DNA from: Candidatus Latescibacterota bacterium
GTDB lineage: Bacteria > Latescibacterota > UBA2968 > GCA-2709665
Length of the DNA stretch: 64,000 nt
Assembly: GCA_965219455.1 (NCBI GenBank)
Contig: OZ244744.1
Location: forward strand, 3,904,001-3,968,000
Direction: 5' to 3'
Each line of letters begins with the position of its first letter. The first letter of the stretch is position 1. The notes under the pieces are model-generated. The model ran no database searches and was not told where the DNA came from. It was given only the letters and a program-made list of their open reading frames with translations. Below are positions 48,785 through 60,518 of this stretch, one piece after another. A program made the position numbers and the translations under genes.

Positions 48785-48825
48785 CAGTCCGTCGAAGGCG
48801 TCGGACTCGCTCCATACCCGGGCAT

Positions 48826-49947
48826 TCATCGCCGTTTCCTGGTATACGCCAGTATTCCGTTAACGAGCCGCTCCGCGTTGCGCTCCCTGTCCTTATGATA
48901 CCGAATCTGATACGCGTCGTCTTTATCGTGGACGTTGTGGATCTCAACCAGAATCTCGGCGTGGGCCGAATTATTCCGAAGTACCCACAGGCTCCGCCCC
49001 TGAACCCGCGCGGGCACGTCCGGATGGTTCAGAGCCGAACGCATGATGCGGGCGAAAGTTCTGGAACGGCTGTCAACCTTGCCCCGCCGTTTCAGATAGA
49101 TCGCCAAGGGACCCCTGGAACGCCCGGGGTTGTTGTCCGCATGCAGTGAGACAAACAGACGCCTGCCCCTGCGCGCCCTTTTGAAGAACCGGTTCGCAAC
49201 CCGAACGCGCTGCGAGAGATTGGCGCTCCTGGGTCGCACCCGATCGGAATTTCTCCGGTTGTAACGTTCATCGTTATAGACTTCGTTCTTTTCGTGGACG
49301 AACGTAACCTTGGCCTCCACGTTATCCCGAATCAGATGATTGGGGCTAATCACCGTCAATGCCACTTCCGCGCCCAGAAGTCGAAGTTTCCTGTACATTC
49401 GCAGTGCAATATCGTAGACATATTCATCTTCGACGACGTAAACCCGCTTGTTCTGGCCCGTTATATTGGAAACGATCGCTCCCGGATCGATCCCCCCGTG
49501 CCCGGGGTCGAGCACAATACGCCAGCCCTTGAGCGGCTGCCGTCTCTTCCTGTGGGCCCGGGAGAGAATCTCGTTGTCAAAGGCGCGCAACAGGATCTGA
49601 GCGCGCCGATAGTCCAGACTCGGGGTGGAACGCGAGGCCTCCGAATAGTTCCGGTGCCTTTGCCTGGCCGCGGTTGGCTTTCGCCAGTAGTACGGACCGT
49701 TCTGCGCCTCATATTTGACAATTCTTGGACCCAGCCGCAGCACCTGCCCCGGATAGATGTTATTTGTGCGTAGCTTGTTGATTCGCTTGATCTCCCGGAT
49801 GCTTGTCTGGAACTGCCGGGCTATGGAATACAGAGTGTCGCCCTTCCGGACCTCGTAGTCCGGCGAGAGCGCGGCAAGGGGACTTGCGAACAGCATGACC
49901 AGGCAAAGCCCGGCAGTCAGCAGGCGCAAATGTCGATAGTTTTCCAT
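48826..49947 (-). CDS. LysM-containing N-acetylmuramoyl-L-alanine amidase (Amidase_3)
   Basis: Signal peptide; LysM YEVRKGDTLYSIA; LDPGHGGIDPGA, VSLHAD, ILVE. Confidence 0.85.
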   Translation of the reverse strand: MENYRHLRLLTAGLCLVMLFASPLAALSPDYEVRKGDTLYSIARQFQTSIREIKRINKLRTNNIYPGQVLRLGPRIVKYEAQNGPYYWRKPTAARQRHRNYSEASRSTPSLDYRRAQILLRAFDNEILSRAHRKRRQPLKGWRIVLDPGHGGIDPGAIVSNITGQNKRVYVVEDEYVYDIALRMYRKLRLLGAEVALTVISPNHLIRDNVEAKVTFVHEKNEVYNDERYNRRNSDRVRPRSANLSQRVRVANRFFKRARRGRRLFVSLHADNNPGRSRGPLAIYLKRRGKVDSRSRTFARIMRSALNHPDVPARVQGRSLWVLRNNSAHAEILVEIHNVHDKDDAYQIRYHKDRERNAERLVNGILAYTRKRR

Positions 49948-50092
49948 AATTATCGTTCTACGCGGAAGCACCAATAGATCGGCGACCACACCTGTCACGC
50001 CCTCCTGAGAGAGCACTTCAGATATTACGCTATTTGTCTGCAAAAGACAAGTCGCCTCCGCCCGGGAACGAGGGGGCAACGACGGCCCGATC

Positions 50093-50128
50093 CGGTTGTT
50101 TTCGCCTCACGTATGGTGTTATTCACCA
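50093..50128 (+). promoter_or_regulatory. Putative enhancer (UAS) sites for a PspF-like activator
   Basis: Palindrome TGGTGTTATTCACCA (50114-50128) and a degenerate copy CGGTTGTTTTCGCCT 21 bp upstream. Confidence 0.55.
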
Positions 50129-50213
50129 ACAGTCGATGACAGCCCTGTCTCGTTGTACGGAATAAATTCAGTAAATACAGATACATAATCAAAGTGTGGT
50201 TTTTTTGTCATAC

Positions 50214-50229
50214 GGGTACGGTTCTTGCC
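50214..50229 (+). promoter_or_regulatory. sigma54 (-24/-12) promoter of the pspA operon
   Basis: GG-TACGGTTCTT-GC with exact GG-N10-GC spacing; AT-rich, IHF-like tract (AATCAAAGTGTGG) upstream. Confidence 0.65.
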
Positions 50230-50322
50230 TCGTGTGGTCGGCAGAACGGTGGAGGAGAACCGGAAATCGGATTTTCTTAACATGGTGGCGTTCAGATGCC
50301 CACCTTAGAAGGGAGTACGACC

Positions 50323-51000
50323 ATGGCCAAAGGGGTTTTCTCCAGAATGGCGGACATTATCAAAGCCAACATCAACGATCTTCTGAATCGCGCCGAAGAT
50401 CCGGAAAAGATGATTCGGCAGATGATTCTCGAAATGGAAGAGGCCGTCAACAAGGCGACTGCGTCCGTCGGGACCGCCGTTGCCAACGAAAAACGCCTGG
50501 AGCGTCAGTTATTGGAAAAAACCGACCAGATCGAAGCCTGGCAGAAAAAGGCCGAACTGGCCGTGGAATCCGGCGAGGACGACCTTGCCAGGCGCGCGCT
50601 GGAACGAAAGGCCGCCCTCGAAAAGGCCGCCCGCGACCTGGAAATCGCTTTCGACGAGAGCCACAAGACCTCGGATCAGCTCAAGAAACAGCTGACGCAG
50701 CTCAAGTCCAAACTGGACGAAGCACGCACCAGCCAGGGCGCCCTCATCGCGCGCCGTCGCGCCGCGCAGGCGAGAAAGCAGATCGCCCAGGGCCTTTCGG
50801 GCATCGGCGATGACGCATTTTCCAGCTTCGAACGCTTCCGCAGCCGGGTCGAAAACGAAGAAGCAGAGGCGTCTGCTCACGCCGAAATTGCGGGTGAGGA
50901 TTCCTCGCTTGAAGACTCGTTCGAAAAACTGGAACGCCGGAACACCGTGGAAGAGGAACTTGAGGCCCTGAAAAACAAACTGCGTAAATCCGATGCGTGA
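50323..51000 (+). CDS. pspA: PspA/IM30 family protein
   Basis: GVFSRMADIIKANINDLLNRAEDPEKMIRQMILEME, EDDLARRAL, VEEELEALK. Confidence 0.93.
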   Translation: MAKGVFSRMADIIKANINDLLNRAEDPEKMIRQMILEMEEAVNKATASVGTAVANEKRLERQLLEKTDQIEAWQKKAELAVESGEDDLARRALERKAALEKAARDLEIAFDESHKTSDQLKKQLTQLKSKLDEARTSQGALIARRRAAQARKQIAQGLSGIGDDAFSSFERFRSRVENEEAEASAHAEIAGEDSSLEDSFEKLERRNTVEEELEALKNKLRKSDA

Positions 51001-51634
51001 ATTGCGAAATATCCTGGACGAAATCGCTTACGAAATTGAAAAGGCGGTGCGCAACACAAAAGAGGCCTGGCGTGACGTCCGGAACACCCGACCCATTCGG
51101 CAAGGACCGCGAACGGTTCGTCACCCACGATCGGGTCGCTCGTCTTTCCGATTCTCCGATCTGGCCACTGACGGGAGCTGCGCCATGCGATACGCCCTCG
51201 CGTTCGTTCTGAAAGCCACAGCGATTTTGTTTGGACTCGGCGGCCTGATGGGCCCCGTGTTCTCCGGTTTCCAGCCGTCCGGCTTCCGCCTGGCCCCGCT
51301 CGATTTCAGCATGGGGCTTGTGGTTGTCGCCATCGCGCTGGTCTTCTGGCTGGCCGGGTGCAGGGTCCACGCGTCGGCCGAGCACAAGCGGTACGCGCAG
51401 TATCAACATCGGCTGCTCAGACTCGCTCGCGAGAAAGGCGGAAGCCTCACGGTTCTGGAGGCTGCTACCGACGGCAGCATGACCGTCGAAAAAGCGGCTG
51501 AAATCCTGGGCGATTTGGCCGTCGGCGGCAGCGCCGAGGTGCGCGTTTCCGAGTCCGGTCTTGTTGTCTATCACTTTCCTGAAGTTGAACGCGGGGCCGA
51601 AAAATACCGGGCGAAACCGGTGGATGACCTTTGA
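50993..51634 (+). CDS. Two-TM membrane protein with C-terminal winged-helix-like domain
   Basis: Overlaps the pspA stop; two hydrophobic helices; LLRLAREKGGSLTVLEAA...AEILGDL...VSESGLVVYHFP. Confidence 0.7.
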   Translation: MRELRNILDEIAYEIEKAVRNTKEAWRDVRNTRPIRQGPRTVRHPRSGRSSFRFSDLATDGSCAMRYALAFVLKATAILFGLGGLMGPVFSGFQPSGFRLAPLDFSMGLVVVAIALVFWLAGCRVHASAEHKRYAQYQHRLLRLAREKGGSLTVLEAATDGSMTVEKAAEILGDLAVGGSAEVRVSESGLVVYHFPEVERGAEKYRAKPVDDL

Positions 51635-51645
51635 TATCTTAAACA

Positions 51646-51829
51646 GTGTTCTGTCCCATAAATTTCTCACCATTCGGCCGCCGATTCATCCCGTCTCGCG
51701 GCGTTGCCTTCGCTCGCCGACCTTACGCAGGTCGCCTGCACTCTGGCGCTGGTTCCTGAGCCGGTCGAAGGATGCGAGCCGGGCGACTCGACTGCCGAAT
51801 TCTGGCAACCTATTTCTGGGACAGAACAC
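51646..51829. mobile_element. MITE family B, copy 2, with internal REP-like insert
   Basis: Terminal repeats GTGTTCTGTCCCATAAAT / ATTTCTGGGACAGAACAC (17/18); extra GGTTCCTGAGCCGGTCGAAGG relative to copy 1. Confidence 0.78.
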
Positions 51830-51844
51830 GGACGGAGGGATGTC

Positions 51845-52060
51845 ATGTTTGAAGTTGGCATTGGAATTGCGCTAATTGTTCTCGCGGCGGCGGTCCACAA
51901 ATATGTAGATCGGCAAACCAAAGGCTTCATGCCCGGCAAAGTGGAAGAGCGCCTGAATGTCCGGCTGGACGACCTTGACCGAAGACTGACGGATATCCAG
52001 GAAATCATGATCGCGATCGACGAAAAGCTGACTCGGCCGGGCTCGCGAGGGACCTCGTGA
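51845..52060 (+). CDS. PspB-like single-TM coiled-coil protein
   Basis: GGAGG site; MFEVGIGIALIVLAAAV...RLDDLDRRLTDIQEIMIAIDEKL. Confidence 0.7.
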   Translation: MFEVGIGIALIVLAAAVHKYVDRQTKGFMPGKVEERLNVRLDDLDRRLTDIQEIMIAIDEKLTRPGSRGTS

Positions 52061-52153
52061 TCGGCGAACGCGCGGGCATTGGGGATCCGAGAGAAACCGG
52101 ATCGAGCAACTGCGCCCGGATCAAGCCTACTCAACAACAAGAGGCGTTGAACC

Positions 52154-52528
52154 ATGAACAAAAAGCGGATTCACGTCGGTGAGCGGATTCAGGATGGAGC
52201 GGTTATCGTCTCCGTGAGTGGCGATCCCATTGCACGGCCGGATGTAGCGCCCCTGCGACGCAAAATACGAAACCTGGTCAACGACGGCGCCAGGACGGTC
52301 GTGGTCGACCTTTCAAGGGTGAATCGACTCGGCGCCGCCTTGCTGGGGGAGTTGATCAGGGGTCTGACCACCATAAGAGACGTAGGCGGGGACCTGAAGC
52401 TGAGCGGCGTTTCGGGTCGGATCGAGAGAGTCCTCGCGGTAACGAGACTCTCACGCTTATTCAAGATTGCCTATGCGGGAACCGGTCCGCCGGACGCAGA
52501 CCACAGAACTGTTAAAAAGGTGGCTTGA
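52154..52528 (+). CDS. STAS domain (anti-sigma antagonist-like) protein
   Basis: VSVSGD, VVVDLSRV, GGDLKL, RVLAVTRLSRLF. Confidence 0.8.
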   Translation: MNKKRIHVGERIQDGAVIVSVSGDPIARPDVAPLRRKIRNLVNDGARTVVVDLSRVNRLGAALLGELIRGLTTIRDVGGDLKLSGVSGRIERVLAVTRLSRLFKIAYAGTGPPDADHRTVKKVA

Positions 52529-52595
52529 GACTTCAGTGTATAGGAAATCCACTGCTTGATTTTCGAAACGCGGGGAATCCGGAGGAGGGAACGGA

Positions 52596-53180
52596 ATGAG
52601 CTGGATATTGGAAATGGCGTTAGCCTTATGCCTGTTGATGATTGCGGGTGGGTTTTCAGTCTATCTGATGACTCCCGGTAACAAAAAGCCGAGCGGATCC
52701 ACGGTGGGGATTTTCCTGGCTGTGGCGGCCGTGGGGTTCGTAATCTGGGCCTTAACGTCTGAACGGTGGAACTTGCTTCCAGGTACTGATAATATTCCTG
52801 AACTGACCGAAGCCGGCAGTGCCGGCGGCATGTCGGGCGAAGGCTTGAAGCTATTCCTGGACAATCAACGGCGATTGGAATCCGCTGCCAAAAAACTCGA
52901 AGGCATCGCGAACAGGCTCGAACTGGCTCAATCTGGAACGGGTCTGGGTATCGCAATGGAAATTGGCATCGGAATCTGTCTGATAATTTTTGCCGGGGGC
53001 CTCGTGAGCTATATACACCTCAGGAAAAAGAGGGAGGGCAAAGGGATGAGTCCCGACCGGGCGAGACGAATGGAAACGCGGCTCGACACAGTGGATCAGC
53101 GTTTAAATGAATTCCAGGACGTCCTGATATCCATTGACGACAGGCTGAACCGGTTGAAGGGAAACAAAGTCGCAGGTTGA
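52596..53180 (+). CDS. Membrane protein with tandem PspB-like TM/coiled-coil modules
   Basis: Three hydrophobic helices; C-terminal MEIGIGICLIIFAGG...RLDTVDQRLNEFQDVLISIDDRL matches 51845-52060. Confidence 0.72.
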   Translation: MSWILEMALALCLLMIAGGFSVYLMTPGNKKPSGSTVGIFLAVAAVGFVIWALTSERWNLLPGTDNIPELTEAGSAGGMSGEGLKLFLDNQRRLESAAKKLEGIANRLELAQSGTGLGIAMEIGIGICLIIFAGGLVSYIHLRKKREGKGMSPDRARRMETRLDTVDQRLNEFQDVLISIDDRLNRLKGNKVAG

Positions 53181-53303
53181 TCAGCATTGGGACCGGTTAA
53201 CGCCGGTGCAATCCAGCGTTGACGAGGGTTCCTGGTCTCTCGTGAAACTCAGGATAGGATCTTTCATTAAATAAAACACCCGAAAAACAGAAAGGACAGA
53301 GCC

Positions 53304-53480
53304 ATGCTCGCAAAGATTCTCGGTATCATACTCATTGCCATCGGCGCATACCTCGGTATTTTCGAAGCGATCAAGCTGATCGGCGTGTCCCTGGAAGTCC
53401 TGTTTCTGCTCCTGAAACTGCTGGTTTCGTTCGTCCTTATTTACGTGGGTTATCGGCTGCTTGCGAGTGACTCCAGGTAA
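53304..53480 (+). CDS. Small 58-aa two-TM membrane protein (LiaI/PspG-like topology)
   Basis: Read by hand after AAGGA: MLAKILGIILIAIGAYLGIFEAIKLIGVSLEVLFLLLKLLVSFVLIYVGYRLLASDSR. Confidence 0.72.
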   Translation: MLAKILGIILIAIGAYLGIFEAIKLIGVSLEVLFLLLKLLVSFVLIYVGYRLLASDSR

Positions 53481-53511
53481 TTGACCCTCCTTTCGAGAGG
53501 ATATCCCATTG

Positions 53512-54087
53512 ATGGAAAACGAACGGCATCTGGTCCGGAGGGCCGTCAAAGGTGACGCGGCTGCCTTCGGCATACTTTATAAGGCCTGCCATGAACAGAT
53601 CTACGCCACGATGGTGCGACGAACCAGCGATCCTGAAACCGCGCAGGATCTCGTGCAAACCGCCTTTTTAAGGGCATATACCGCCATGGGTTCCTACCGG
53701 GGAGAGGCTGCGTTTGCCACCTGGCTTACGCAAATCGCGCTGAACGTACATAGATCCCACTTCCGCAAACAGCAGGTGCGCCGGAGGTGGATAAAGGTAT
53801 CCGAAGACCCCGCGGCCCTTGCCGAAGCTACGCGCCTGCCCGCTTGCGGCGAAAATCCTGAGATTTCGACCCAGCGAAACCAGCACCGCGAACTCGTCAG
53901 GAAGAGTATTCGCGCATTGCCGGCCAGATATCGCAAGGTCGTCTGGATGCGTTACGTCCGGGACTGGACATACAAGGAGATTACCCGGGAGTTGCAGCTT
54001 CCAATGGGTACGGTCAAGACCTGGCTCAACCGTGGAAGGTACCAATTGAAGGGCGAATTCAGAAAACGGGGGTTGGACCCCTTCTGA
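53512..54087 (+). CDS. ECF RNA polymerase sigma factor
   Basis: GDAAAF, AQDLVQTAF, FATWLTQIALN, LPARYR, YKEI...LPMGTVKTWLNRGR. Confidence 0.9.
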   Translation: MENERHLVRRAVKGDAAAFGILYKACHEQIYATMVRRTSDPETAQDLVQTAFLRAYTAMGSYRGEAAFATWLTQIALNVHRSHFRKQQVRRRWIKVSEDPAALAEATRLPACGENPEISTQRNQHRELVRKSIRALPARYRKVVWMRYVRDWTYKEITRELQLPMGTVKTWLNRGRYQLKGEFRKRGLDPF

Positions 54088-54347
54088 GATGGCGCGCCGC
54101 GGGGTTCCGGACGCGTAGAGTTGAGGGCCGGGTCGGTTCGGCGGTTGAGCTCACGCCAGGCTCGCGGGCGACTTCGCAGGTAGGGAACGACCCGGCGCCC
54201 GTCGTCATCGGCGAAACCCATCGCAATTTTGTGTTGACGTAAAGAATATTCTATATCACATTTCGCAGCGCGGCGCGCATGCCTGGCATGCGCCTGCCTC
54301 TTTCCCACTTACCGTGTGGTACGTGCAAAATCAAGCAGACCCGCAGA

Positions 54348-54968
54348 ATGGAGCCATATTTGGATGCCTGGTGGACGGATCTGACCACGCTCAACCAGAT
54401 TTTCTACGTCGTGGCGATTTTTTTCAGTGCGTTTTTCGTCTGGCAACTCCTGGTGGTTCTACTTGGTCTTGGAGACGGTTCGGATGCAGGCGTTTCCGGA
54501 GATACAAACCTCGGCGACGCCGGCCCGGAACTTAACGACGGACTGGAAGACGGTACGGTTGCTTCTTTCAAACTGCTATCCGTCAGGTCCCTGATCGCCT
54601 TCGGCATGCTGTTCGGGTGGGCGGGCGCCCTGTATCTGGAGAAAGGGTTGGATATTCAGACCGCCCTACTTTACGCGCTTGTCTGGGGCAGTGCGGGCAT
54701 GGCGGTCGTGGCCTATTTTTTCCGCGGAATCCGGCAGCTTACAGAGACTGGAAACGCCAGCCTGGATACATGCGTTGGTACGTCGGGCGAGGTATATTTG
54801 GATATCCCGGAAGGCGGCACCGGACAGGTCCGGGTGATGGAGAGCGGCGCCGTCGCCTACGTATCTGCCCGCGGAAAAAATGGCATGCCCATCTCAACCA
54901 ATACGCCGGTCCGCATTCTACGTGTGCTCGATCCAACCACGCTTGAGGTCGAGCCGTTGGTGTCCTGA
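54348..54968 (+). CDS. NfeD-like (short, YqiJ-type) membrane protein with OB fold
   Basis: Three TMs; LLSVRSLIAFGMLFGWAG; GTSGEVYLDIP..GTGQV; adjacent to flotillin. Confidence 0.8.
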   Translation: MEPYLDAWWTDLTTLNQIFYVVAIFFSAFFVWQLLVVLLGLGDGSDAGVSGDTNLGDAGPELNDGLEDGTVASFKLLSVRSLIAFGMLFGWAGALYLEKGLDIQTALLYALVWGSAGMAVVAYFFRGIRQLTETGNASLDTCVGTSGEVYLDIPEGGTGQVRVMESGAVAYVSARGKNGMPISTNTPVRILRVLDPTTLEVEPLVS

Positions 54969-55120
54969 GTGGATTTTGGTTCAAATGTCTATGTTTCCAG
55001 TATTTCCTAATTGTCTGATTGCGCCGATGGATGAGACAGGAAGGGTTTTCAACCCGCACGGGATTCGCTCCGGGATAGATCTCAATCAGAGGTGAAATAT
55101 CCAATTGAGGAGGGATTGCA

Positions 55121-56635
55121 ATGGCAACTGAGACGATACTGACAATTATAATGCTGTTAGTGGTATTTCTGCTCTTCGTGACGTTTATTTCCAGGTACAG
55201 GCGGTGTCCATCCAACAAGATACTGGTCGTCTACGGCAAGACCGGACAGGGGGCGGCAAAATGCGTTCACGGGGGCGCTGCCTTCGTTCTTCCGCTCCTT
55301 CAGGACTATGAGTATCTGGACCTGGAGCCGTTTGTCGTTCCCATAGACCTGGACAACGCCCTTTCACAGGAGAACATCCGCGTGTCCGTTCCGACAACCG
55401 TCACGGCGGCGGTTTCAAATCAGGCGGGCGTGATGCAGAATGCGGCAGTTCGTCTCCTGGGTCTTTCACGCGAACAAATCGAGAGTCAGGCGCAGGACAT
55501 CATCCTCGGTCAGATGCGGGCGGTGATAGCCACCATGGAAATCGAAGAAATCAACCGGGACCGGCAGGCTTTCATGTTCAAGGTTAATGAAGCAGTCTCC
55601 ACCGAAATGGAGAAAATCGGCCTGGCCGTGATTAACGTGAACATCAAGGATATTGAAGACGAAAGCGGTTATATCAAGGCTCTCGGGCAAAAGGCCGCGG
55701 CCGAAGCTATCAACCAGGCGACCATCGACGTGGCCGAGCAGGAGAAGACGGGCAAGGTGGGTGTGGCCGAGCGGGAACGGGACCAGCGCACCGACGTGGC
55801 TGCTGCGCATGCGGCCGCCGACATCGGCGAGGCCGAAGCCGCCAGGGACCGGCGCCAAAGGGTTGCCGCCCTCGAATCCGAAGCCCAGATCGGCGAGGCC
55901 GAGGCCACGAGAAACAAACGCCAGATGGTCTCTACTCTGGAAGCGGAAGCGGTCCAGGCCGAGGCCGGGGCCGAGGCAAAAAAGGCCGGTTATATGGCAC
56001 AGCAGACGGTGTCCGAGGAGGTCGCGCGGCAAAAGGGGCAGGAGGCGGCGAAGGCAGCGGACGGCGCCATCCGGGTTGCCCAGGAACGGGCTGAGAAAGA
56101 AGCCGAGGATGCCCGGGCGCTGCGCGAAGTAGCGCGACTGAGAGCGGAAATCGTCGTACAGGCCGATGCGCAAAAGCAGAAGCTGGTCGTACAGGCGGAG
56201 GCCGAGAAGGAGCAGAGGACACTTGTGGCGCAGGGGGAAGCTGCTGCCATTTTGGCACAGAAGCAAGCCGAAGCCGAGGGCACTCAGGCCATCCTGGACG
56301 CCAAGGCGGAGGGCTACAAGGAGTTGGTGGCCGCATGCGGAGGAAACGACCAGGCTGCCGCAGCCTTCCTCATCGTGGAACGGCTGACCGAGGTCGCAGG
56401 TATCCAGGCCGAAGCCATCAAGAATCTGCCCCTGGAGAAGATCATGGTGTGGGATGGTGGCAACGGACAGGGTGGTATGTCCAACCTCGGCCAGCGGCTG
56501 ATGGGCGCCATTCCTCCGATGCACGAACTGGCAAAGTTGGCGGGCCTGGAACTGCCGGAGTTTTTGGGCCGCTTGGCCGGCCAGACCGATCCGACGAGCG
56601 CCGCTGTAGACAAACCGGAAACGCCATCGGAATAG
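55121..56635 (+). CDS. Flotillin-like SPFH/Band-7 protein
   Basis: RYRRCPSNKILVVYG, HGGAAFVLP, GQMRAVIA, INVNIKDI, long AE-rich coiled coil, VWDGG. Confidence 0.9.
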   Translation: MATETILTIIMLLVVFLLFVTFISRYRRCPSNKILVVYGKTGQGAAKCVHGGAAFVLPLLQDYEYLDLEPFVVPIDLDNALSQENIRVSVPTTVTAAVSNQAGVMQNAAVRLLGLSREQIESQAQDIILGQMRAVIATMEIEEINRDRQAFMFKVNEAVSTEMEKIGLAVINVNIKDIEDESGYIKALGQKAAAEAINQATIDVAEQEKTGKVGVAERERDQRTDVAAAHAAADIGEAEAARDRRQRVAALESEAQIGEAEATRNKRQMVSTLEAEAVQAEAGAEAKKAGYMAQQTVSEEVARQKGQEAAKAADGAIRVAQERAEKEAEDARALREVARLRAEIVVQADAQKQKLVVQAEAEKEQRTLVAQGEAAAILAQKQAEAEGTQAILDAKAEGYKELVAACGGNDQAAAAFLIVERLTEVAGIQAEAIKNLPLEKIMVWDGGNGQGGMSNLGQRLMGAIPPMHELAKLAGLELPEFLGRLAGQTDPTSAAVDKPETPSE

Positions 56636-56659
56636 TCACGCTTCATCAGGAGTCACGGA

Positions 56660-58288
56660 TTGAAAAGACCCGCAATACCGGACAACGGGCCGGACGCTGC
56701 CAACCACATCGGTATCGCTCAGTCCCTGCCTGAATCCGAGCATGCCGAAGCCCGGCGGTGCTGCCGCGACGGCGATACCTCGATGGAAACCGGCGACCTG
56801 GCGAAAGCCGAGGCCGCCTACCGGGCGGCGTTATCCGCCGACGTCGAGAATATGCGGGCGCGCCACAATCTGGGTGTTGTCTACTACAGGCAGGGCAACT
56901 GGCGGGACGCGCTGACCTGCTTTACGCGCTGCCTTGCTCGTGCGCCGGAACACGGTGCGGGCTTGTATTTCAATGTAGGCCTCTGCCGGCTAAAAGGGGG
57001 CGTTAACGGAGCTTTGCAGGCCTTTGAAGCCGCCACCGCAGGTAATCCGGACCATCTTGAGGCGCAATTTCAGTTGGCGCTTTTGCAGGCCGAAGGCGTG
57101 GATTCGGGATCGAACGGCCGGCAACGAGCCGTTGAAGCGCTTCGCTACATTCTCGAGGCCGTGGACCGGGGCGTGCCATTCGCCAATGTAGACGGTACCT
57201 GCTTCTTGCTCGCCAGCTTTCTCGACGACCTTCCGGACAACATCGATGAAGCCATCCTGGTCTATCGCCGAGGGTTGGAAGCGAATCCGCTGTTCGCCCC
57301 AGGCCATAACAACCTTGGCGTTCTGCTCATGGAAACGGGTCAGACCCTCCAGGCCCTTGGCGCATTCAAGATAGCCATCCAGCTCGAGCCGGACTATGAG
57401 CTACCCTACAGAAACCTGGCGCACCTTCTTTTTGATCACAAGAATTCGGCACAGATGGAACAGGAATACACTTCCATTATTGAGGAATTCGGCGCAAAGG
57501 CAGCCTCGGTCCTGGCACGCTTATCCCTTGAACTCATCGACCTGGGACGTGTGCAGGTGGGAGAGAGCCTGTATACGCGGGGTCACCAGATCAAGAACCT
57601 GATGGGTCTGGTCGGGAGCCGTACGCGCCGGCTTATTCGAAGGGTCCCGCAGAAAGACACCGTTCTCGACGATCTGAGAAACATCGCCCGCGACCAGGAA
57701 CACATTTACGACCAATGGGTCGCCTATCTGCGCAGCATGAAACAGGATCCGCTGAACCCCTCTCTGGTGGATATTCCGCAACTCGTGGGCAAAATCAAGG
57801 AGACGATCTCGACCCGGACCGGCGGCGCAGCGCTCCGCTTTGCATCTGAACCGCAGGTTCCCCAGGTCAAGGTCGATCCCGGCATGCTGCGTGAAGCCGT
57901 CACCAATCTGATTCTCAACGCGCTTGACGCCGTAGATGAGGATGGAGCGGTCACGGTTCAGGCAGGCTACGACAACAAGCGGGCGTCGGTCTTCATCGAA
58001 GTGGAAGACAACGGACCCGGCATATCCGAAGCCATTCAGGCCAGGATCTTCGATCCCGGATTTTCCACCAAGGAAAAAGGCAATGGCTTCGGCCTCAGCA
58101 TCTGTTCCCGCATTGTATCCGCCCATAGGGGAAGCCTGCGCATGATCAGCCGTCCGGGCGCCGGCGCCGTGTTCCGCATCGACCTTCCGGTGGACTTCGA
58201 ACTTGCCTCCGGACCCGAAAGTATCGGCTGGAGTGGCGATCCGATATCTACCTCGCGGCTGCCGCTGGCCGAAGAATTCATCGAGTAA
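56660..58288 (+). CDS. Soluble TPR-repeat histidine kinase
   Basis: TPRs (ARHNLGVVYY, GHNNLGVLL); H-box GHQIKN; NLILNA, DNGPGI, FSTK, GNGFGL; no TM segment. Confidence 0.85.
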   Translation: MKRPAIPDNGPDAANHIGIAQSLPESEHAEARRCCRDGDTSMETGDLAKAEAAYRAALSADVENMRARHNLGVVYYRQGNWRDALTCFTRCLARAPEHGAGLYFNVGLCRLKGGVNGALQAFEAATAGNPDHLEAQFQLALLQAEGVDSGSNGRQRAVEALRYILEAVDRGVPFANVDGTCFLLASFLDDLPDNIDEAILVYRRGLEANPLFAPGHNNLGVLLMETGQTLQALGAFKIAIQLEPDYELPYRNLAHLLFDHKNSAQMEQEYTSIIEEFGAKAASVLARLSLELIDLGRVQVGESLYTRGHQIKNLMGLVGSRTRRLIRRVPQKDTVLDDLRNIARDQEHIYDQWVAYLRSMKQDPLNPSLVDIPQLVGKIKETISTRTGGAALRFASEPQVPQVKVDPGMLREAVTNLILNALDAVDEDGAVTVQAGYDNKRASVFIEVEDNGPGISEAIQARIFDPGFSTKEKGNGFGLSICSRIVSAHRGSLRMISRPGAGAVFRIDLPVDFELASGPESIGWSGDPISTSRLPLAEEFIE

Positions 58289-58292
58289 CCTT

Positions 58293-59699
58293 ATGAGTGC
58301 CCAGATCGTTATTGCGGATGACCAGCCCGAAATTCTGGACATGCTCACGCGAAGCCTGCAGGTGGATGGCCGGATCGTGAGGGCCTTTCCGACGGGAAAG
58401 AAGGCCTTTGCATACCTGCGAGAGCACATTTCGGACGTTGACATGGCCATTCTGGATATCGATTTCGGCCCGGCCGAGCCGGACGGTCTGAAAATCCTGC
58501 GGCAGATTCGCGCCCTTGTGCCCGCCTTGCCCGTTATCATCCTTACGGGCAAGGGCACCGTGGAGAACGCAGTAGCCGCCCTGCGCATGGGTGCCTCCGA
58601 CTTTATCGAAAAAGATTTCTATATTGAGGACCGGCTCGAACTCAGCCTGGAAAAACTCGACCGGGTACTTGCCGTCCTTAAGGAGAATGCCCGGCTTCAT
58701 GCCCGGGTAAAGGATCTGGACCGCGAGAATCGTTTCTACCGGGACGAGTTCGGGAAAAAGTACAGGCCGATCAACGCCAGCCCCCAGATGCTGCGGATTA
58801 TGCAGCAGGCCGAGCGTATCGCTTCCATCCCCCGGCCGGTTCTTGTTCTCGGCGAACCCGGCACCGGAAAGGAACTCGTGGCCGCTGCGATCCACTACGG
58901 CGGGGTACGGAGAGATCGTCCTTTCGTTAAAGTCAACTGCGCCGCCCTCTCCGCCAACCTGCTCGAAAGCGAACTTTTCGGCTACGAAAAAGGGGCCTTC
59001 ACCGGAGCTACCGAAGCCCGACCCGGTCGTTTTGAAGCGGCCAACGGCGGTACGCTGTTACTCGACGAAATTGGCAACACCACACCGGAATTCCAGCAGA
59101 ACGTCCTGCGTGCCATCGAATACCAGGAGATTCAACGGGTGGGCGGAGCCACGCCCACCCGCGTGGACGTACGAATCATTGCCGCCACGAATGCCGATCT
59201 TGAACGTGAGATCATCGACGGGCGTTTTCGTCAGGACCTCTTCGACCGCCTGCGCTTTGAAATTATCCGCGTTCCCCCTCTTCGCGACCGGCGTGAAGAT
59301 ATCCAGCCGCTTGCCGGATTTTTCGTTGAACAGATCGTCCGGGAGGTCCCGGGACTCAAGGTCCGTCCGTTTTCGGAAAGCGCCCTCCGCCACCTGTTGG
59401 GCTACCCGTGGCCGGGAAACGTGCGCGAGCTCAAATTCGCCGCCGAACGCGCCACGTGCATGGCAACGGGCGCATCCATCGAAACCCGGGACCTGCCGCC
59501 CGAAATCTCCAGCGGGGCTCCGGCGGCATCGGGAGACGGTTTCGACGCTCAGGTCACGGCCTTTGAACTCGGATTGCTAAGGAGCGCGCTGAGCCGAACG
59601 AACTGGAACCAGCGCAAGGCGGCCGAATCGCTCAGTTTGAGCTACGATCAGTTTCGTCACTTTTACCGAAAGTTCGGACTTGCCAAAGAAAGGTCCTGA
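58293..59699 (+). CDS. sigma54-dependent response regulator (REC-AAA+-HTH) with PspF-like HTH
   Basis: REC (ADD, ILDID, LTG, EK); GEPGTGKE, ESELFG, GAFTGA, LDEI, WPGNVREL; HTH NQRKAAESLSLSYDQFRHF. Confidence 0.9.
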   Translation: MSAQIVIADDQPEILDMLTRSLQVDGRIVRAFPTGKKAFAYLREHISDVDMAILDIDFGPAEPDGLKILRQIRALVPALPVIILTGKGTVENAVAALRMGASDFIEKDFYIEDRLELSLEKLDRVLAVLKENARLHARVKDLDRENRFYRDEFGKKYRPINASPQMLRIMQQAERIASIPRPVLVLGEPGTGKELVAAAIHYGGVRRDRPFVKVNCAALSANLLESELFGYEKGAFTGATEARPGRFEAANGGTLLLDEIGNTTPEFQQNVLRAIEYQEIQRVGGATPTRVDVRIIAATNADLEREIIDGRFRQDLFDRLRFEIIRVPPLRDRREDIQPLAGFFVEQIVREVPGLKVRPFSESALRHLLGYPWPGNVRELKFAAERATCMATGASIETRDLPPEISSGAPAASGDGFDAQVTAFELGLLRSALSRTNWNQRKAAESLSLSYDQFRHFYRKFGLAKERS

Positions 59700-59729
59700 C
59701 ACGCGTTCTTCATATTAGGAGACCGGAAG

Positions 59730-60518
59730 ATGAATATTGTCGTATTCGGCGCGGCTGGCTGGCTCGGACGGGCGGCGCTGGCCGCTTTGGAGAAAAACCA
59801 TCGGATCCGGGCGTTCGACTTCGGCCCGAAGGCGTGGCGCGCCTGGCAGGACACCGAAGGTGAATGGACGGGCGGCGACGTCGTCCACGGAGATATCGTG
59901 GATTTTGAAGCCGTACACCGTGCCACGGAGGGTATGGACGCCGTTCTGCACATGGCGGTGTACCACTCGAACGATCCGGGCGCCCACGGCGTAGACGACG
60001 TTAAACCCTTCCTCGTCAACGTCAAGGGCCTCTGGAACGTACTGGAATCCGCCCGCCGCCACGGCATCGGGAGGATCGTGCATCTCGGCTCCTGTCAGAC
60101 CGCCCATCCCAGGGGCATCTTCTTCACGGCCGACGTCAGGCGGCCCGACGGCGGCCTTTACGGCGTCACGAAACGCCTTCAGGAAGAAATGTGCCGGCAG
60201 TTCCACGACGCGTTCGGCCTCCGCATTATTGTGCTGCGGCCGGACTACATTGTTGACAGCCGACTCGGTATCGGTCGGTACAAGGAAAAACTTGGTACGG
60301 AAGATCGGCCCTACCGCCAGGGCTGGGTGTGCCGCCACGACCTTGCGGAAGCCTGTCGCCTGAGCCTGGAATCCCAATCCATTGATTTCGACGTTTTCCA
60401 TATCGTGGGAACGCCGGGGGCCGACAGAACCTGCAACGTCGCACGGTCCCGAGAAATACTCGGCCTGGAATACCGGGGAAATCTCGAACAATACCGGACT
60501 GACGCCAGCGTTGAATAG
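59730..60518 (+). CDS. NAD-dependent epimerase/dehydratase (extended SDR)
   Basis: VFGAAGWLG, GDIVD, NVKGLWNV, YGVTK. Confidence 0.85.
   Translation: MNIVVFGAAGWLGRAALAALEKNHRIRAFDFGPKAWRAWQDTEGEWTGGDVVHGDIVDFEAVHRATEGMDAVLHMAVYHSNDPGAHGVDDVKPFLVNVKGLWNVLESARRHGIGRIVHLGSCQTAHPRGIFFTADVRRPDGGLYGVTKRLQEEMCRQFHDAFGLRIIVLRPDYIVDSRLGIGRYKEKLGTEDRPYRQGWVCRHDLAEACRLSLESQSIDFDVFHIVGTPGADRTCNVARSREILGLEYRGNLEQYRTDASVE

What the first reader, a model, noticed from the sequence alone, without database searches (positions are those of the whole stretch)
50093..59699. Candidate new envelope-stress system: a Psp/ESCRT-III locus rewired to a TPR-kinase two-component circuit
Seen: eleven co-directional genes behind a sigma54 promoter, namely pspA, a TM-winged-helix protein, two genes with repeated PspB-like modules, STAS, a small 2-TM protein, an ECF sigma, NfeD, flotillin, a soluble TPR histidine kinase and a REC-fused PspF-like activator. 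No pspC is recognisable. Established: in E. coli PspA directly inhibits the receiver-less activator PspF and PspBC sense stress; Bacillus controls LiaH through LiaRS and nfeD-flotillin through SigW. Inference: this locus joins sigma54, ECF and phosphorelay control of a PspA-flotillin membrane-repair module in one unit, a combination I do not recognise as described.
Basis: partly seen in the sequence, partly recalled or inferred. Interest (0 to 1): 0.85.

Follow-up and report, generated by a model that had tools for sequence, protein, structure and literature searches.

The report
Kinase-controlled PspA membrane-stress locus, Latescibacterota
An uncultured bacterial lineage keeps its membrane-repair protein PspA next to a soluble sensor kinase and a phosphorylation-dependent sigma-54 activator, a conserved but untested rewiring of the classical phage-shock response, to which a stress sigma factor and a flotillin pair were added later.

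Summary
The eleven + strand genes are real. Family models confirm PspA, STAS, an ECF sigma, an SPFH/flotillin protein, a TPR histidine kinase without membrane segments, and a REC-AAA+-HTH sigma-54 activator. "NfeD" is weakly supported. "PspB-like" is a resemblance only.

The gene order is conserved in all 42 related loci long enough to judge. A sigma-54 -24/-12 promoter with a two-site enhancer precedes pspA in every locus that has upstream DNA.

The unit is layered:
- A five-gene core spans three families of one class of Candidatus Latescibacterota: pspA, a 2TM winged-helix protein, TM-coiled-coil proteins, the TPR kinase and the REC activator.
- The ECF sigma and a small 2TM protein occur in one order only.
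- NfeD-flotillin is present in 35 loci and absent in 9.
- STAS is present in 13 of 47 loci.

A second conserved promoter-like block precedes nfeD, so a single operon is not shown.

The activator keeps all receiver phospho-residues and lacks the tryptophan through which E. coli PspA holds PspF. Control by phosphorelay is therefore the likely mechanism.

I found no description in print. The supplements of the main survey were closed. Earlier notes of this scan report sigma-54 two-component PspA operons in Myxococcota on other DNA.

Verdict: a new variant of a known kind, of moderate interest.

The parts
50093..50130 (+). Putative enhancer (UAS): site A at 50093-50107 and site B at 50113-50130. 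Site B is TGGTG-N5-CACCA dyad-like. The sites lie about 85-120 nt upstream of the -24 element.
   Evidence: Conserved blocks appear in the upstream alignments of all clades. TGG-N8-RCCAR occurs in 37 of 47 upstream regions, against a mean of 0.47 in shuffles. The other 10 read CGG or GGG at the first position. The strict dyad has 6 sites in the genome, and only this one has a sigma-54-like site within 260 nt. Binding by the activator is inferred.
50214..50228 (+). Sigma-54 type -24/-12 promoter, GGGTAC-N5-TTGC.
   Evidence: Present, scoring at least 8 of 10 consensus positions, in all 47 sequences with usable upstream DNA (the window plus 46 loci; L074 has only 22 nt upstream), and in 8 of 8 f4 loci. 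The genome has one rpoN.
50296..51000 (+). pspA (PspA/IM30). The likely true start is M10 at 50323, giving 225 aa as in the orthologues.
   Evidence: Pfam PF04012, E 1.1e-47. NCBIfam PspA models are the best hits but lie below their cut-offs. Mean column identity among 18 orthologues is 86%.
50993..51634 (+). g2: an N-terminal helix, a 2-TM hairpin and a C-terminal winged helix. It overlaps the pspA stop by 8 nt. It is the proposed membrane partner of PspA.
   Evidence: AF2 model. Best Foldseek rows are winged helices, with E>1e-3. No Pfam family. It directly follows pspA in the loci retrieved with g2 as the query and in the 16 loci retrieved with the kinase. Phylum tallies: f1 20/21, f2 30/31, f4 51/76, other families 0/39.
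51646..51829 (.). MITE-like dispersed repeat inserted between g2 and g3. Its terminal inverted repeats are GTGTTCTGTCCCA and TGGGACAGAACAC. It is not part of the system.
   Evidence: 120 blastn HSPs in the genome, 39 of them at least 150 nt long. Contigs of relatives skip 51641-51833. G011 has only about 20 nt at this position.
51845..52060 (+). g3: a 71-aa protein of one TM helix plus the conserved cytoplasmic helix RLTDIQ..I.IDEKL (the 'PspB-like' module). The ORF is open from 51704, but only residues from M48 onward are conserved.
   Evidence: Alignment A2. At least one module is present in 45 of 47 loci. No Pfam PspB hit. hhalign probability 15.5%. The best 120 database relatives are all unnamed or 'hypothetical' and carry no Pfam domain.
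52154..52528 (+). Single-domain STAS protein, a lineage-specific insert.
   Evidence: Pfam STAS_2 and STAS above their cut-offs. Present in 13 of 47 loci.
52596..53180 (+). g5: two N-terminal TM helices plus a second copy of the TM-coiled-coil module.
   Evidence: Translation. The module aligns with g3. Present in 17 of 47 loci. Absent in G011 and in the relatives laid.
53304..53480 (+). g6: a 58-aa protein with two TM helices, lying directly before the ECF gene.
   Evidence: Translation. tblastn hits in 23 of 47 loci. ORFs of 56-59 aa at the same position in most other loci, with two of them read.
53509..54087 (+). ECF-type sigma-70 factor with no recognisable anti-sigma partner.
   Evidence: Pfam r2 plus r4_2. 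TIGR02937 above its cut-off. Present in 45 of 47 loci of families f1 and f2, and absent in 8 of 8 f4 loci. No promoter block lies upstream of g6-ECF.
54234..54262 (+). Conserved promoter-like block upstream of nfeD, TTGACG-N17-CACATT. The sigma factor that would use it is unassigned.
   Evidence: Conserved in the own-genus alignment. A block with the same geometry, TTGCTT-N17-CAAATT, is conserved in family f2. The consensus scan did not list it.
54279..54968 (+). g8: a YqiJ/NfeD-like membrane protein with TM helices and a C-terminal beta domain. The likely start is 54348.
   Evidence: Pfam NfeD, E 0.053-0.066, covering profile positions 2-57 of 57. 15 of 18 orthologues hit it, all below the cut-off. 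It always lies next to the flotillin gene.
55121..56635 (+). Flotillin-type SPFH protein (FloT/YqiK-like).
   Evidence: Pfam Band_7, E 9.7e-27. NCBIfam FloT, E 4.9e-42 over positions 3-475 of 477, below its cut-off. Present with g8 in 35 of 47 loci.
56660..58288 (+). Soluble histidine kinase. It has variable N-terminal TPRs, a conserved TPR core at residues about 130-300, the H-box GHQIKNLMG with H309, HATPase_c, and a conserved C-terminal tail AEEFI.
   Evidence: Pfam TPR families plus HATPase_c. No Pfam HisKA hit, but G308, H309, K312, N313, L314, M315 and G316 are invariant in 19 sequences. Orthologue in 39 of 41 genomes of the order. The sensor core is found in f1 20/21, f2 28/31 and f4 50/76.
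58203..59699 (+). NtrC-family response regulator (REC, sigma-54 AAA+, Fis-type HTH). The likely start is M31 at 58293, 4 nt after the kinase stop.
   Evidence: Pfam. The DD, D, T and K receiver residues, GA(F/Y)TGA and the Walker A lysine are invariant in 41 of 41 sequences. 44% identity to E. coli PspF over 308 aa. The PspF W56 position reads R, K, G or S and never W.

Best explanation
This is a Psp-type membrane-stress locus whose switch is a two-component system rather than the PspA-PspF clamp.

Shown by comparison:
- A five-gene core is kept across three families of Latescibacterota: pspA, the 2TM winged-helix protein g2, one or more TM-coiled-coil 'handle' proteins, a soluble TPR histidine kinase and a REC-AAA+-HTH activator.
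- pspA is preceded by a conserved sigma-54 promoter and a two-site enhancer.

Inferred:
- The kinase has no membrane segment, so it reads the state of the membrane indirectly. Its conserved TPR core would contact g2, PspA or the invariant cytoplasmic helix of the handle proteins.
- The kinase phosphorylates the receiver of the activator.
- The activator binds the enhancer and opens the sigma-54 promoter.
- PspA is made together with its translationally coupled membrane partner g2 and acts on the damaged membrane.

In the window's order, the same transcript also carries a small 2TM protein and an ECF sigma factor without an anti-sigma. This would be a second regulatory tier made only on induction. 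Its targets are unknown.

nfeD-flotillin was inserted between the ECF gene and the kinase in most members. It brings or sits behind its own promoter-like block, which would also supply basal kinase and activator.

STAS, g5 and, in relatives, Toastrack genes are further lineage-specific plug-ins.
For: - Domain content.
- Colinear core in 42 of 42 loci long enough to judge. The five loci not judged are cut by contig ends.
- Independent retrieval by the kinase: 39 of 41 genomes of the order have the orthologue. All 16 loci fetched around it carry pspA and g2 upstream, although G015 has only a piece of g2.
- The minimal core, without ECF or flotillin, is present in 8 of 8 loci of family f4.
- g2 and the kinase's sensor core have the same phyletic pattern: f1 20/21 and 20/21; f2 30/31 and 28/31; f4 51/76 and 50/76. 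Elsewhere there are none, apart from one weak hit.
- The sigma-54 promoter is present in all 47 sequences with usable upstream DNA and in 8 of 8 f4 loci.
- The enhancer motif is present in 37 of 47 upstream regions, against 0.47 in shuffles. In this genome it is paired with a sigma-54-like site only at pspA.
- There is one rpoN. Of 13 sigma-54 activator matches, only this one lies beside a pspA.
- The receiver and AAA+ catalytic residues are invariant in 41 of 41 sequences.
- H309 and its H-box are invariant.
- pspA and g2 overlap by 8 nt.
- No promoter block precedes g6-ECF. In f2 there is a gap of about 30 nt with a ribosome-binding site.
- A conserved block precedes nfeD.
- Toastrack, a known Psp/Lia partner domain, is inserted at the same place in L068 and L077 (its role is taken from passages of PMC11237479).
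Against: - Nothing here is experimental. No binding, phosphotransfer or transcript has been shown.
- The contact between the kinase and any Psp component is pure inference. The one complex prediction I requested was unavailable.
- Pfam finds no HisKA domain in the kinase.
- The sigma factor for the nfeD block is unknown. In some loci without flotillin the kinase follows the ECF gene with almost no gap (L080, L082). There the whole row may be a single sigma-54 operon.
- Two loci (L075, L079) have no handle protein in the cluster, so the handles cannot be the only input.
- The genomes compared are relatives and are not independent. The 47 loci were retrieved with g2 itself.
- The AAA+ core is no closer to PspF than to ZraR, so descent from a PspF is not shown.
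Confidence: 0.6

Rival explanations
1. All eleven genes form one sigma-54-driven, self-activating operon, in which sigma-54, the ECF sigma and the phosphorelay jointly control a PspA-flotillin repair module.
For: - All the genes are co-directional with short gaps: flotillin to kinase 24 nt, kinase to activator 4 nt, g6 to ECF 28 nt.
- In loci without flotillin the kinase can follow the ECF gene almost without a gap (L080, L082).
- One RNA-library contig of 776 nt bridges the flotillin-kinase junction (X1 record 7). Contigs of relatives in two other RNA studies run across the cluster (X6, X8). The tool warns that neither shows a single transcript.
Against: - A conserved promoter-like block precedes nfeD in both families that have it.
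- The ECF-to-nfeD gap is about 260 nt.
- Flotillin is absent in 9 loci, and ECF and flotillin are both absent in 8 of 8 f4 loci. The combination is therefore not the conserved unit.
- No ECF-type promoter could be assigned.
Confidence: 0.2
2. An E. coli-like clamp is retained. PspA binds the AAA+ domain of the activator directly and inhibits it, and the receiver and kinase are only an additional input.
For: - The activator's AAA+/HTH part is 44% identical to E. coli PspF over 308 aa.
- The NCBIfam PspF model is its best hit, though below the cut-off.
- PspA is highly conserved, with 86% mean column identity. That would be compatible with a second, regulatory interface.
Against: - The residue aligned with PspF W56 is R, K, G or S in 41 of 41 orthologues. 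PspA binding depends on W56 in E. coli (PMC3128695, passages).
- ZraR scores the same as PspF.
- All receiver phospho-residues are kept, which argues that phosphorylation is the working control.
Confidence: 0.12
3. The adjacency is partly coincidental. The kinase and activator control pspA-g2, but the ECF sigma, nfeD-flotillin and STAS are unrelated passengers that landed in a permissive gap and share neither signal nor function.
For: - These genes are present patchily: STAS in 13 of 47 loci, flotillin in 35 of 47, and ECF only in f1 and f2.
- The same gap takes up a MITE in this genome, an ISL3 transposase in L080, and a DUF5686 protein in L074.
Against: - The inserts are enriched for membrane-stress themes known from other Psp or Lia loci. 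Examples are flotillin with a YqiJ/YuaF-type partner, Toastrack, and extra TM-coiled-coil handles (PMC11237479 passages).
- g6-ECF is kept at one fixed place in 45 of 47 loci of the order and has no promoter of its own.
Confidence: 0.2

Closest known systems
Enterobacterial Psp system (pspF || pspABCDE)
   Same: A PspA effector behind a sigma-54 promoter, driven by an AAA+ enhancer-binding protein with a Fis-type HTH. Small single-pass membrane proteins with a cytoplasmic helix are encoded after pspA. The activator is 44% identical to PspF over 308 aa.
   Different: - The activator carries a complete receiver domain and has a cognate kinase. PspF has none (PMC11237479, section 5 passage).
- The W56 position is not a tryptophan.
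- There is no PspC anywhere in the genome, and no Pfam PspB.
- The regulator lies downstream and co-directional, not divergent.
- A 2TM winged-helix partner is present that the E. coli system lacks.
Bacillus subtilis LiaRS-LiaIH (liaIHGFSR)
   Same: A PspA homologue and its membrane anchor are switched on by a two-component system encoded in the same locus (PMC9239133 introduction passage).
   Different: In the Lia system LiaS is a membrane kinase held by LiaF, LiaR is REC plus a winged HTH (PMC11237479 passage), and the promoter is of the sigma-70 type (recalled). Here the kinase is soluble with TPRs, the regulator is NtrC-type and the promoter is sigma-54.
E. coli ZraS-ZraR-ZraP
   Same: An envelope-stress two-component system with an NtrC-family sigma-54 activator. 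The ZraR AAA+ core scores the same as PspF against this activator (244 against 245 bits).
   Different: ZraS is a membrane kinase and the output is the periplasmic protein ZraP, not PspA (roles recalled; gene names).
PspA / band-7-flotillin / YqiJ-YuaF neighbourhoods (Ravi et al. 2024), and SigW control of nfeD-floT in B. subtilis
   Same: A flotillin and a YqiJ/YuaF-type 3TM protein lie beside a pspA (PMC11237479, section 19 passages).
   Different: - The catalogued form is built on a CesT/Tir-PspA dyad. In this genome that dyad sits at the other paralogue, PspA2, which has no flotillin.
- Here flotillin is an optional insert, and no ECF-type promoter could be assigned to it.
HrpR/HrpS to HrpL cascade of Pseudomonas syringae
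   Same: A sigma-54 activator drives transcription of an ECF-type sigma factor that has no anti-sigma, giving two regulatory tiers (abstract of PMC3105312 seen in the listing; that HrpL is an ECF sigma is recalled).
   Different: It serves a different biology, type III secretion. The activators there have no receiver domain.
Sigma-54 two-component PspA operons of uncultured Myxococcota
   Same: pspA lies in one operon with sensor kinase(s) and an NtrC-type sigma-54 activator. These are AI notes that I did not check.
   Different: There the kinases are membrane-embedded. No TPR kinase, 2TM winged-helix partner, ECF sigma or flotillin is mentioned.

Membership tests
PspA/IM30 (ESCRT-III superfamily) | Full-length match to the family model above its curated cut-off | tested here: met
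   PF04012 scores 163 bits against a cut-off of 33.9, over profile positions 1-217 of 220. The NCBIfam equivalog models for PspA and LiaH are below their cut-offs, so it is a family member but not an assigned orthologue of either.
Classical Psp system (E. coli type) | Sigma-54 promoter upstream of pspA | tested here: met
   A conserved -24/-12 element in all 47 sequences with usable upstream DNA, and in 8 of 8 f4 loci. rpoN is present.
Classical Psp system (E. coli type) | Activator PspF without a receiver domain, controlled by PspA binding through W56 | tested here: not met
   A REC domain is present with invariant phospho-residues, and the W56 position is never W, in 41 of 41 sequences. The role of W56 is taken from passages of PMC3128695.
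Classical Psp system (E. coli type) | PspB and PspC membrane sensors | tested here: not met
   PF04024 (PspC) gives no hit in the genome. PF06667 (PspB) gives no hit at E<=1. Of 34 modules, 0 hit it at E<=10. hhalign probability is 15.5%. None of the 120 best relatives listed carries a Pfam domain.
NtrC-family response regulator (bEBP) | REC with the acid pocket, phospho-Asp, Thr and Lys; an AAA+ domain with Walker A and GAFTGA; a C-terminal HTH | tested here: met
   Pfam Response_reg, Sigma54_activat and AAA_lid_14 are above their cut-offs. HTH_8 scores 20 bits against a cut-off of 22. The motifs are invariant in 41 of 41 sequences.
Two-component histidine kinase | Dimerisation/phospho-acceptor (HisKA) domain with the conserved His, plus an HATPase_c domain | tested here: inconclusive
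   HATPase_c scores 83 bits. There is no Pfam HisKA hit. An invariant motif, GH(Q/R)IKNLMG, is present in 19 of 19 sequences. NCBIfam kinase models align from about residue 306.
ECF sigma factor | Sigma-70 regions 2 and 4 only; superfamily model above its cut-off; a cognate anti-sigma nearby | tested here: inconclusive
   r2 plus r4_2, and TIGR02937 above its cut-off. No protein with an anti-sigma domain was recognised in the cluster. The ECF group was not determined.
NfeD / YqiJ-YuaF | TM region plus a C-terminal NfeD beta domain, encoded next to an SPFH gene | tested here: inconclusive
   PF01957 gives E 0.053-0.066 for the window protein. 15 of 18 orthologues hit it, with a best E of 0.0016, all under the 29.1-bit cut-off. 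It lies next to flotillin in 35 of 35 loci that have either gene. There is no PDB relative by sequence.
SPFH / flotillin (FloT, YqiK type) | Band_7 domain above its cut-off plus a long C-terminal flotillin region | tested here: met
   Band_7 scores 94.6 bits against a cut-off of 23.6. The FloT model aligns over positions 3-475 of 477 at 144.6 bits, far below its equivalog cut-off of 700. It is of the flotillin type, but not a FloT equivalog.
STAS (anti-sigma antagonist superfamily) | STAS domain above its cut-off; a partner anti-sigma kinase or phosphatase | tested here: inconclusive
   The domain criterion is met. TIGR00377 scores 45.1 bits, below its cut-off of 53.45. No RsbW- or SpoIIAB-type kinase was seen in the cluster.

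The most novel reading that the evidence does not exclude
Latescibacterota run a modular, multi-input Psp system of a kind not yet described. Several membrane proteins with different outward-facing parts all end in one near-invariant cytoplasmic helix, RLTDIQD..I.IDEKL. The outward-facing parts include a bare TM helix, a 2TM extension, and a protein of about 280 aa with tandem periplasmic repeats. That shared helix, together with the PspA-coupled 2TM winged-helix protein g2, docks on the TPR solenoid of a soluble kinase. Many kinds of envelope damage would thus converge on one phosphorelay, a sigma-54 promoter and an ECF second tier. g2 would act as a membrane-anchored winged-helix nucleator for the ESCRT-III-like PspA, functionally reminiscent of ESCRT-II.
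Probability: 0.22. Interest if true: 0.75.

Novelty: new variant of a known kind. Interest (0 to 1): 0.55.

Why it matters
How bacteria outside the Proteobacteria and Firmicutes sense membrane damage and switch on PspA is largely unknown. [quoted passage not shown]

This locus gives a clean, phylogenetically supported case in which the self-clamping PspA-PspF logic is replaced by a phosphorelay with a cytoplasmic TPR kinase. It has a complete and conserved enhancer-promoter region, and a set of unnamed partner families that can be tested directly:
- the 2TM winged-helix protein;
- the TM-coiled-coil handles;
- the small 2TM protein.

It also shows how such a core picks up flotillin, Toastrack and an ECF sigma as plug-ins. 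That warns against reading every neighbour as part of one circuit.

The organism is uncultured, so the value lies in heterologous tests and in annotating three unnamed protein families.

Tried and rejected
- **Complex prediction.** Complex prediction on PspA, g2 and the kinase TPR part was not available. No partner of the kinase could be tested.
- **Protein Atlas.** It was closed for g2 and for a homologue.
- **Supplements.** Those of PMC11237479 (Table S3, web app) were closed. A catalogued instance there cannot be excluded.
- **PspB homology.** Pfam on single modules, Pfam on 34 modules, the genome search, hhalign and a look for transitive links gave no support.
- **g2 fold search.** No hit reached E<=1e-3. 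ESCRT-II winged-helix subunits appear only at E about 8e-3 and TM 0.29, among many MarR rows, so no case can be made from them.
- **Wider g2 family.** The profile finds 1147 representatives at E<=1e-3, mostly 2TM-winged-helix proteins of about 150 aa. They have no Pfam family and are 'hypothetical' where named.
  - Alignments of these were too diverse for a locus scan.
  - The single contig retrieved (L099, 2.6 kb) has no PspA next to it.
  - A general link to PspA is therefore not shown.
- **ECF promoter.** I looked for a shared ECF-type -35/-10 upstream of g6-ECF and of nfeD. None has a consistent geometry.
- **RNA runs.**
  - In X1 and X2, near-identical contigs cover parts of nfeD, flotillin, the kinase, the activator and the amidase. 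None cover pspA to ECF apart from the repeat.
  - All runs are contigs, so no transcript starts, strand or expression levels can be read.
- **Rfam.** No family matches in 49500-60500.
- **Repeat search of the promoter region.** It added nothing.
- **Consensus scan.** The sigma-70 and terminator scan of the region was not above shuffles for promoters, 4 against 3.3.

Full report
**What is there**

Between 50296 and 59699 the + strand carries eleven ORFs. Pfam places six of them above curated cut-offs:
- PspA/IM30;
- a single-domain STAS protein;
- an ECF-type sigma factor (regions 2 and 4);
- an SPFH/Band_7 protein of flotillin length;
- a 542-aa histidine kinase with several TPR families and HATPase_c;
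- a REC, sigma-54 AAA+, AAA-lid protein with a near-threshold Fis-type HTH.

NCBIfam agrees. It gives only sub-threshold equivalog matches (PspA, SigW, FloT, PspF/AtoC/NtrC). These are therefore family members, not assigned orthologues.

The kinase has no hydrophobic segment. No HisKA model matches it. It does have an invariant GH(Q/R)IKNLMG box around H309 in 19 of 19 aligned sequences.

The activator most likely starts at M31 (58293), 4 nt after the kinase stop.

**The five proteins without a family**

- *g2 (50993-51634).* It overlaps the pspA stop by 8 nt. The AF2 model (mean pLDDT 65.7) shows an N-terminal helix, a two-helix membrane hairpin and a C-terminal winged helix. The best Foldseek rows are MarR-type winged helices, but none reaches E 1e-3.
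- *g3 and the C-terminal third of g5.* They share one module: a TM helix followed by a cytoplasmic helix with the near-invariant motif RLTDIQ..I.IDEKL.
  - The shape is similar, but homology is not supported.
  - No Pfam PspB hit was found for 34 modules at E<=10, and none in the genome at E<=1.
  - hhalign probability against E. coli PspB is 15.5% over 17 columns.
  - The best 120 of 351 database relatives carry no Pfam domain and only 'hypothetical' names.
- *g6.* A 58-aa protein with two TM helices.
- *g8.* It has TM helices and a C-terminal beta domain. That domain hits Pfam NfeD across the whole profile, but only at E 0.05. Of 18 orthologues, 15 do the same, all under the cut-off. Together with its fixed place before flotillin, this makes a YqiJ/NfeD-type protein likely but not proven.

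No PspC domain exists anywhere in the genome.

**Conservation**

Record titles of related loci name Candidatus Latescibacterota. Some MAGs are labelled Gemmatimonadota.

- Searching with the kinase finds a strong orthologue in 39 of 41 genomes of the order.
- All 16 loci fetched around it show the same row of genes. The row runs from a divergent LysM-amidase and CopA, through pspA, to the activator.
- Searching species-representative genomes with g2 gave 47 loci.
- pspA, g2, ECF, kinase and activator are all present and colinear in 42 of them. The other five are cut by contig ends.
- At least one handle module is present in 45 of 47 loci.
- STAS is present in 13 of 47.
- NfeD plus flotillin is present in 35 of 47. 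It is absent in 9 loci where the kinase follows the ECF gene.

Across 168 genomes of the phylum, g2 and the kinase's TPR core have the same distribution:
- f1: 20/21 and 20/21;
- f2: 30/31 and 28/31;
- f4: 51/76 and 50/76;
- other families: none, apart from one weak hit.

In family f4, which belongs to another order of the same class, 8 of 8 fetched loci hold only pspA, g2, one or two handles, the kinase and the activator. They have no ECF sigma and no flotillin.

The conserved unit is therefore this five-gene core, and the rest was added in steps. The gap also takes up other things:
- Toastrack genes in L068 and L077;
- an ISL3 transposase in L080;
- a DUF5686 protein in L074;
- a MITE-like repeat in this genome.

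These genomes are relatives, so the counts show retention within a clade, not independent origins.

**Regulatory DNA**

- The GGGTAC-N5-TTGC site at 50214-50228 would not stand out in the window alone. A -24/-12 element scoring at least 8 of 10 is present in all 47 sequences with usable upstream DNA. It is also present in 8 of 8 f4 loci, mostly as a perfect TGGCAC-N5-TTGC.
- About 85-120 nt upstream lie two conserved sites (50093-50107 and 50113-50130), the second a TGGTG-N5-CACCA dyad.
  - The relaxed motif occurs in 37 of 47 upstream regions, against 0.47 in shuffles.
  - The other 10 read CGG or GGG at the first position.
  - The strict dyad has six sites in the genome, and only this one has a sigma-54-like site within 260 nt.
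- The genome has one rpoN. Of 13 matches to the sigma-54 activator domain, only this one lies beside a pspA.
  - PspA2 sits in a CesT/Tir-PspA-DUF4178 context near a spermine synthase gene, a catalogued type.
  - PspA3 stands alone.
- No conserved promoter block precedes g6-ECF. In f2 the gap is about 30 nt with a ribosome-binding site. The ECF gene is therefore most simply read as part of the pspA transcript.
- A conserved block does precede nfeD: TTGACG-N17-CACATT here (54234-54262) and TTGCTT-N17-CAAATT in f2. I cannot say which sigma factor uses it.

**Mechanism**

The activator keeps the acid pocket, the phospho-aspartate, the Thr and Lys of the receiver, Walker A and GA(F/Y)TGA in 41 of 41 orthologues.

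Its AAA+/HTH part is 44% identical to E. coli PspF. Against the E. coli chromosome, however, PspF (245 bits) and ZraR (244 bits) tie.

The residue aligned with PspF W56 is R here, and R, K, G or S in all 41. PspA binding depends on W56 in E. coli (PMC3128695, passages).

I therefore think control runs through the kinase and the receiver, not through a PspA clamp on the AAA+ domain. The kinase is soluble, so it needs a protein partner to read the membrane. The candidates are:
- g2, which is universal and coupled to pspA;
- PspA itself;
- the invariant helix of the handle proteins.

In some relatives that helix is fused to quite different outward-facing parts. An example is the proteins of about 280-300 aa with tandem repeats in L071, L073 and L078.

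**Expression data**

Only assembled contigs of RNA libraries were on hand.
- In X1 and X2, near-identical short contigs lie on nfeD, flotillin, the activator and the amidase. One contig of 776 nt bridges the flotillin-kinase junction.
- In X6 and X8, contigs of relatives 90-95% alike run across the cluster. They skip the MITE and g5.
- The tool warns that none of this shows transcription units or levels.

**Comparison with what is known**

- The locus works like a Psp response: PspA, a sigma-54 promoter and small membrane partners. It fails three defining features of the E. coli system, namely a receiver-less PspF with the W56 clamp, PspB and PspC.
- It resembles LiaRS-LiaIH in using a two-component system, and ZraSR in using an NtrC-type regulator for envelope stress.
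- The ECF gene behind a sigma-54 promoter recalls HrpRS-HrpL.
- PspA-flotillin-YqiJ/YuaF neighbourhoods, duplicated PspB genes, PspF variants with other N-terminal domains, and PspA beside REC-HTH two-component systems are all in Ravi et al. 2024. I read section 17 and passages of that paper.
- A REC-NtrC activator with a TPR kinase is not in the text I read. The authors say regulators were not analysed systematically.
- No paper in the library holds both 'Latescibacter' and 'PspA'. A further search found nothing relevant.
- Earlier notes of this scan describe PspA operons with membrane kinases and NtrC-type sigma-54 activators in Myxococcota (unchecked). The general wiring is therefore probably wider than this phylum.

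**Verdict**

This is a real, well-conserved, clade-wide variant of the Psp response with a two-component sigma-54 switch and three unnamed partner families. The eleven-gene combination in the window is a late, lineage-specific elaboration of it. Interest is moderate.

Noticed in passing
window 51646-51829: A MITE-like element of about 185 nt, with terminal inverted repeats GTGTTCTGTCCCA and TGGGACAGAACAC, is inserted between g2 and g3. The genome shows 120 blastn HSPs, 39 of them at least 150 nt long. Relatives lack it here, and RNA-library depth over it is many times that of the flanks.
   Followed up: partly
window 58260-58285 (kinase C-terminus): Kinase orthologues of families f1 and f2 end in a conserved tail, P(L/I)AEEFI. 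The f4 kinases lack it. It recalls the acidic C-terminal tails bound by TPR clamps (recalled), so the kinase might dock its own tail in its sensor. This was not tested.
   Followed up: partly
L071 2375-3217, L073 10913-11749, L078 11139-12038: Proteins of about 280-300 aa have an N-terminal hydrophobic segment, four or five tandem repeats of about 35 aa ('ALKVTPEYV.EMR'), a TM helix and the same C-terminal RL.D.QD.L.SIDDRL helix as g3. One cytoplasmic handle thus appears on different outward-facing domains. There is no Pfam hit for the L073 protein.
   Followed up: partly
L068 11496-12698, L077 11721-12743: Toastrack proteins (DUF2807, and in L077 also DUF4097) are inserted between the handle genes and the ECF gene in two f2 relatives. 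Toastrack is a known Psp/Lia partner domain.
   Followed up: no
G000:C1:2945081-2946857 (L088 7082-8858): The second PspA paralogue sits in a CesT_Tir_1-PspA-DUF4178 row, with a spermine synthase gene nearby. This is the dyad context catalogued by Ravi et al. 2024. The third paralogue (L089 8125-8817) has no recognisable partners.
   Followed up: partly
window 46343-50079 and loci L040-L086: A CopA-type P-type ATPase and a divergently transcribed LysM-Amidase_3 cell-wall amidase flank the cluster in nearly all f1 and f2 loci. In f2 the LysM part is multiplied. They are absent next to the f4 core.
   Followed up: no
P0022-P0152: g2's TM-hairpin plus winged-helix part belongs to a large unnamed family. 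It has 1147 representatives at E<=1e-3, mostly about 150 aa, with one named record from a Bacillota isolate. The winged helix is also found fused to RDD and TMEM43 domains. The one contig I could fetch (L099) shows no PspA beside it.
   Followed up: partly
L026 / L086 (G015): In one relative only the winged-helix piece of g2 (residues about 138-196) is found after pspA. This may be a truncated or frameshifted g2.
   Followed up: no
runs X1, X2: Short contigs with no differences from the window lie in two RNA libraries that the run table labels 'sponge metagenome'. The same or a near-identical strain therefore occurs there.
   Followed up: no
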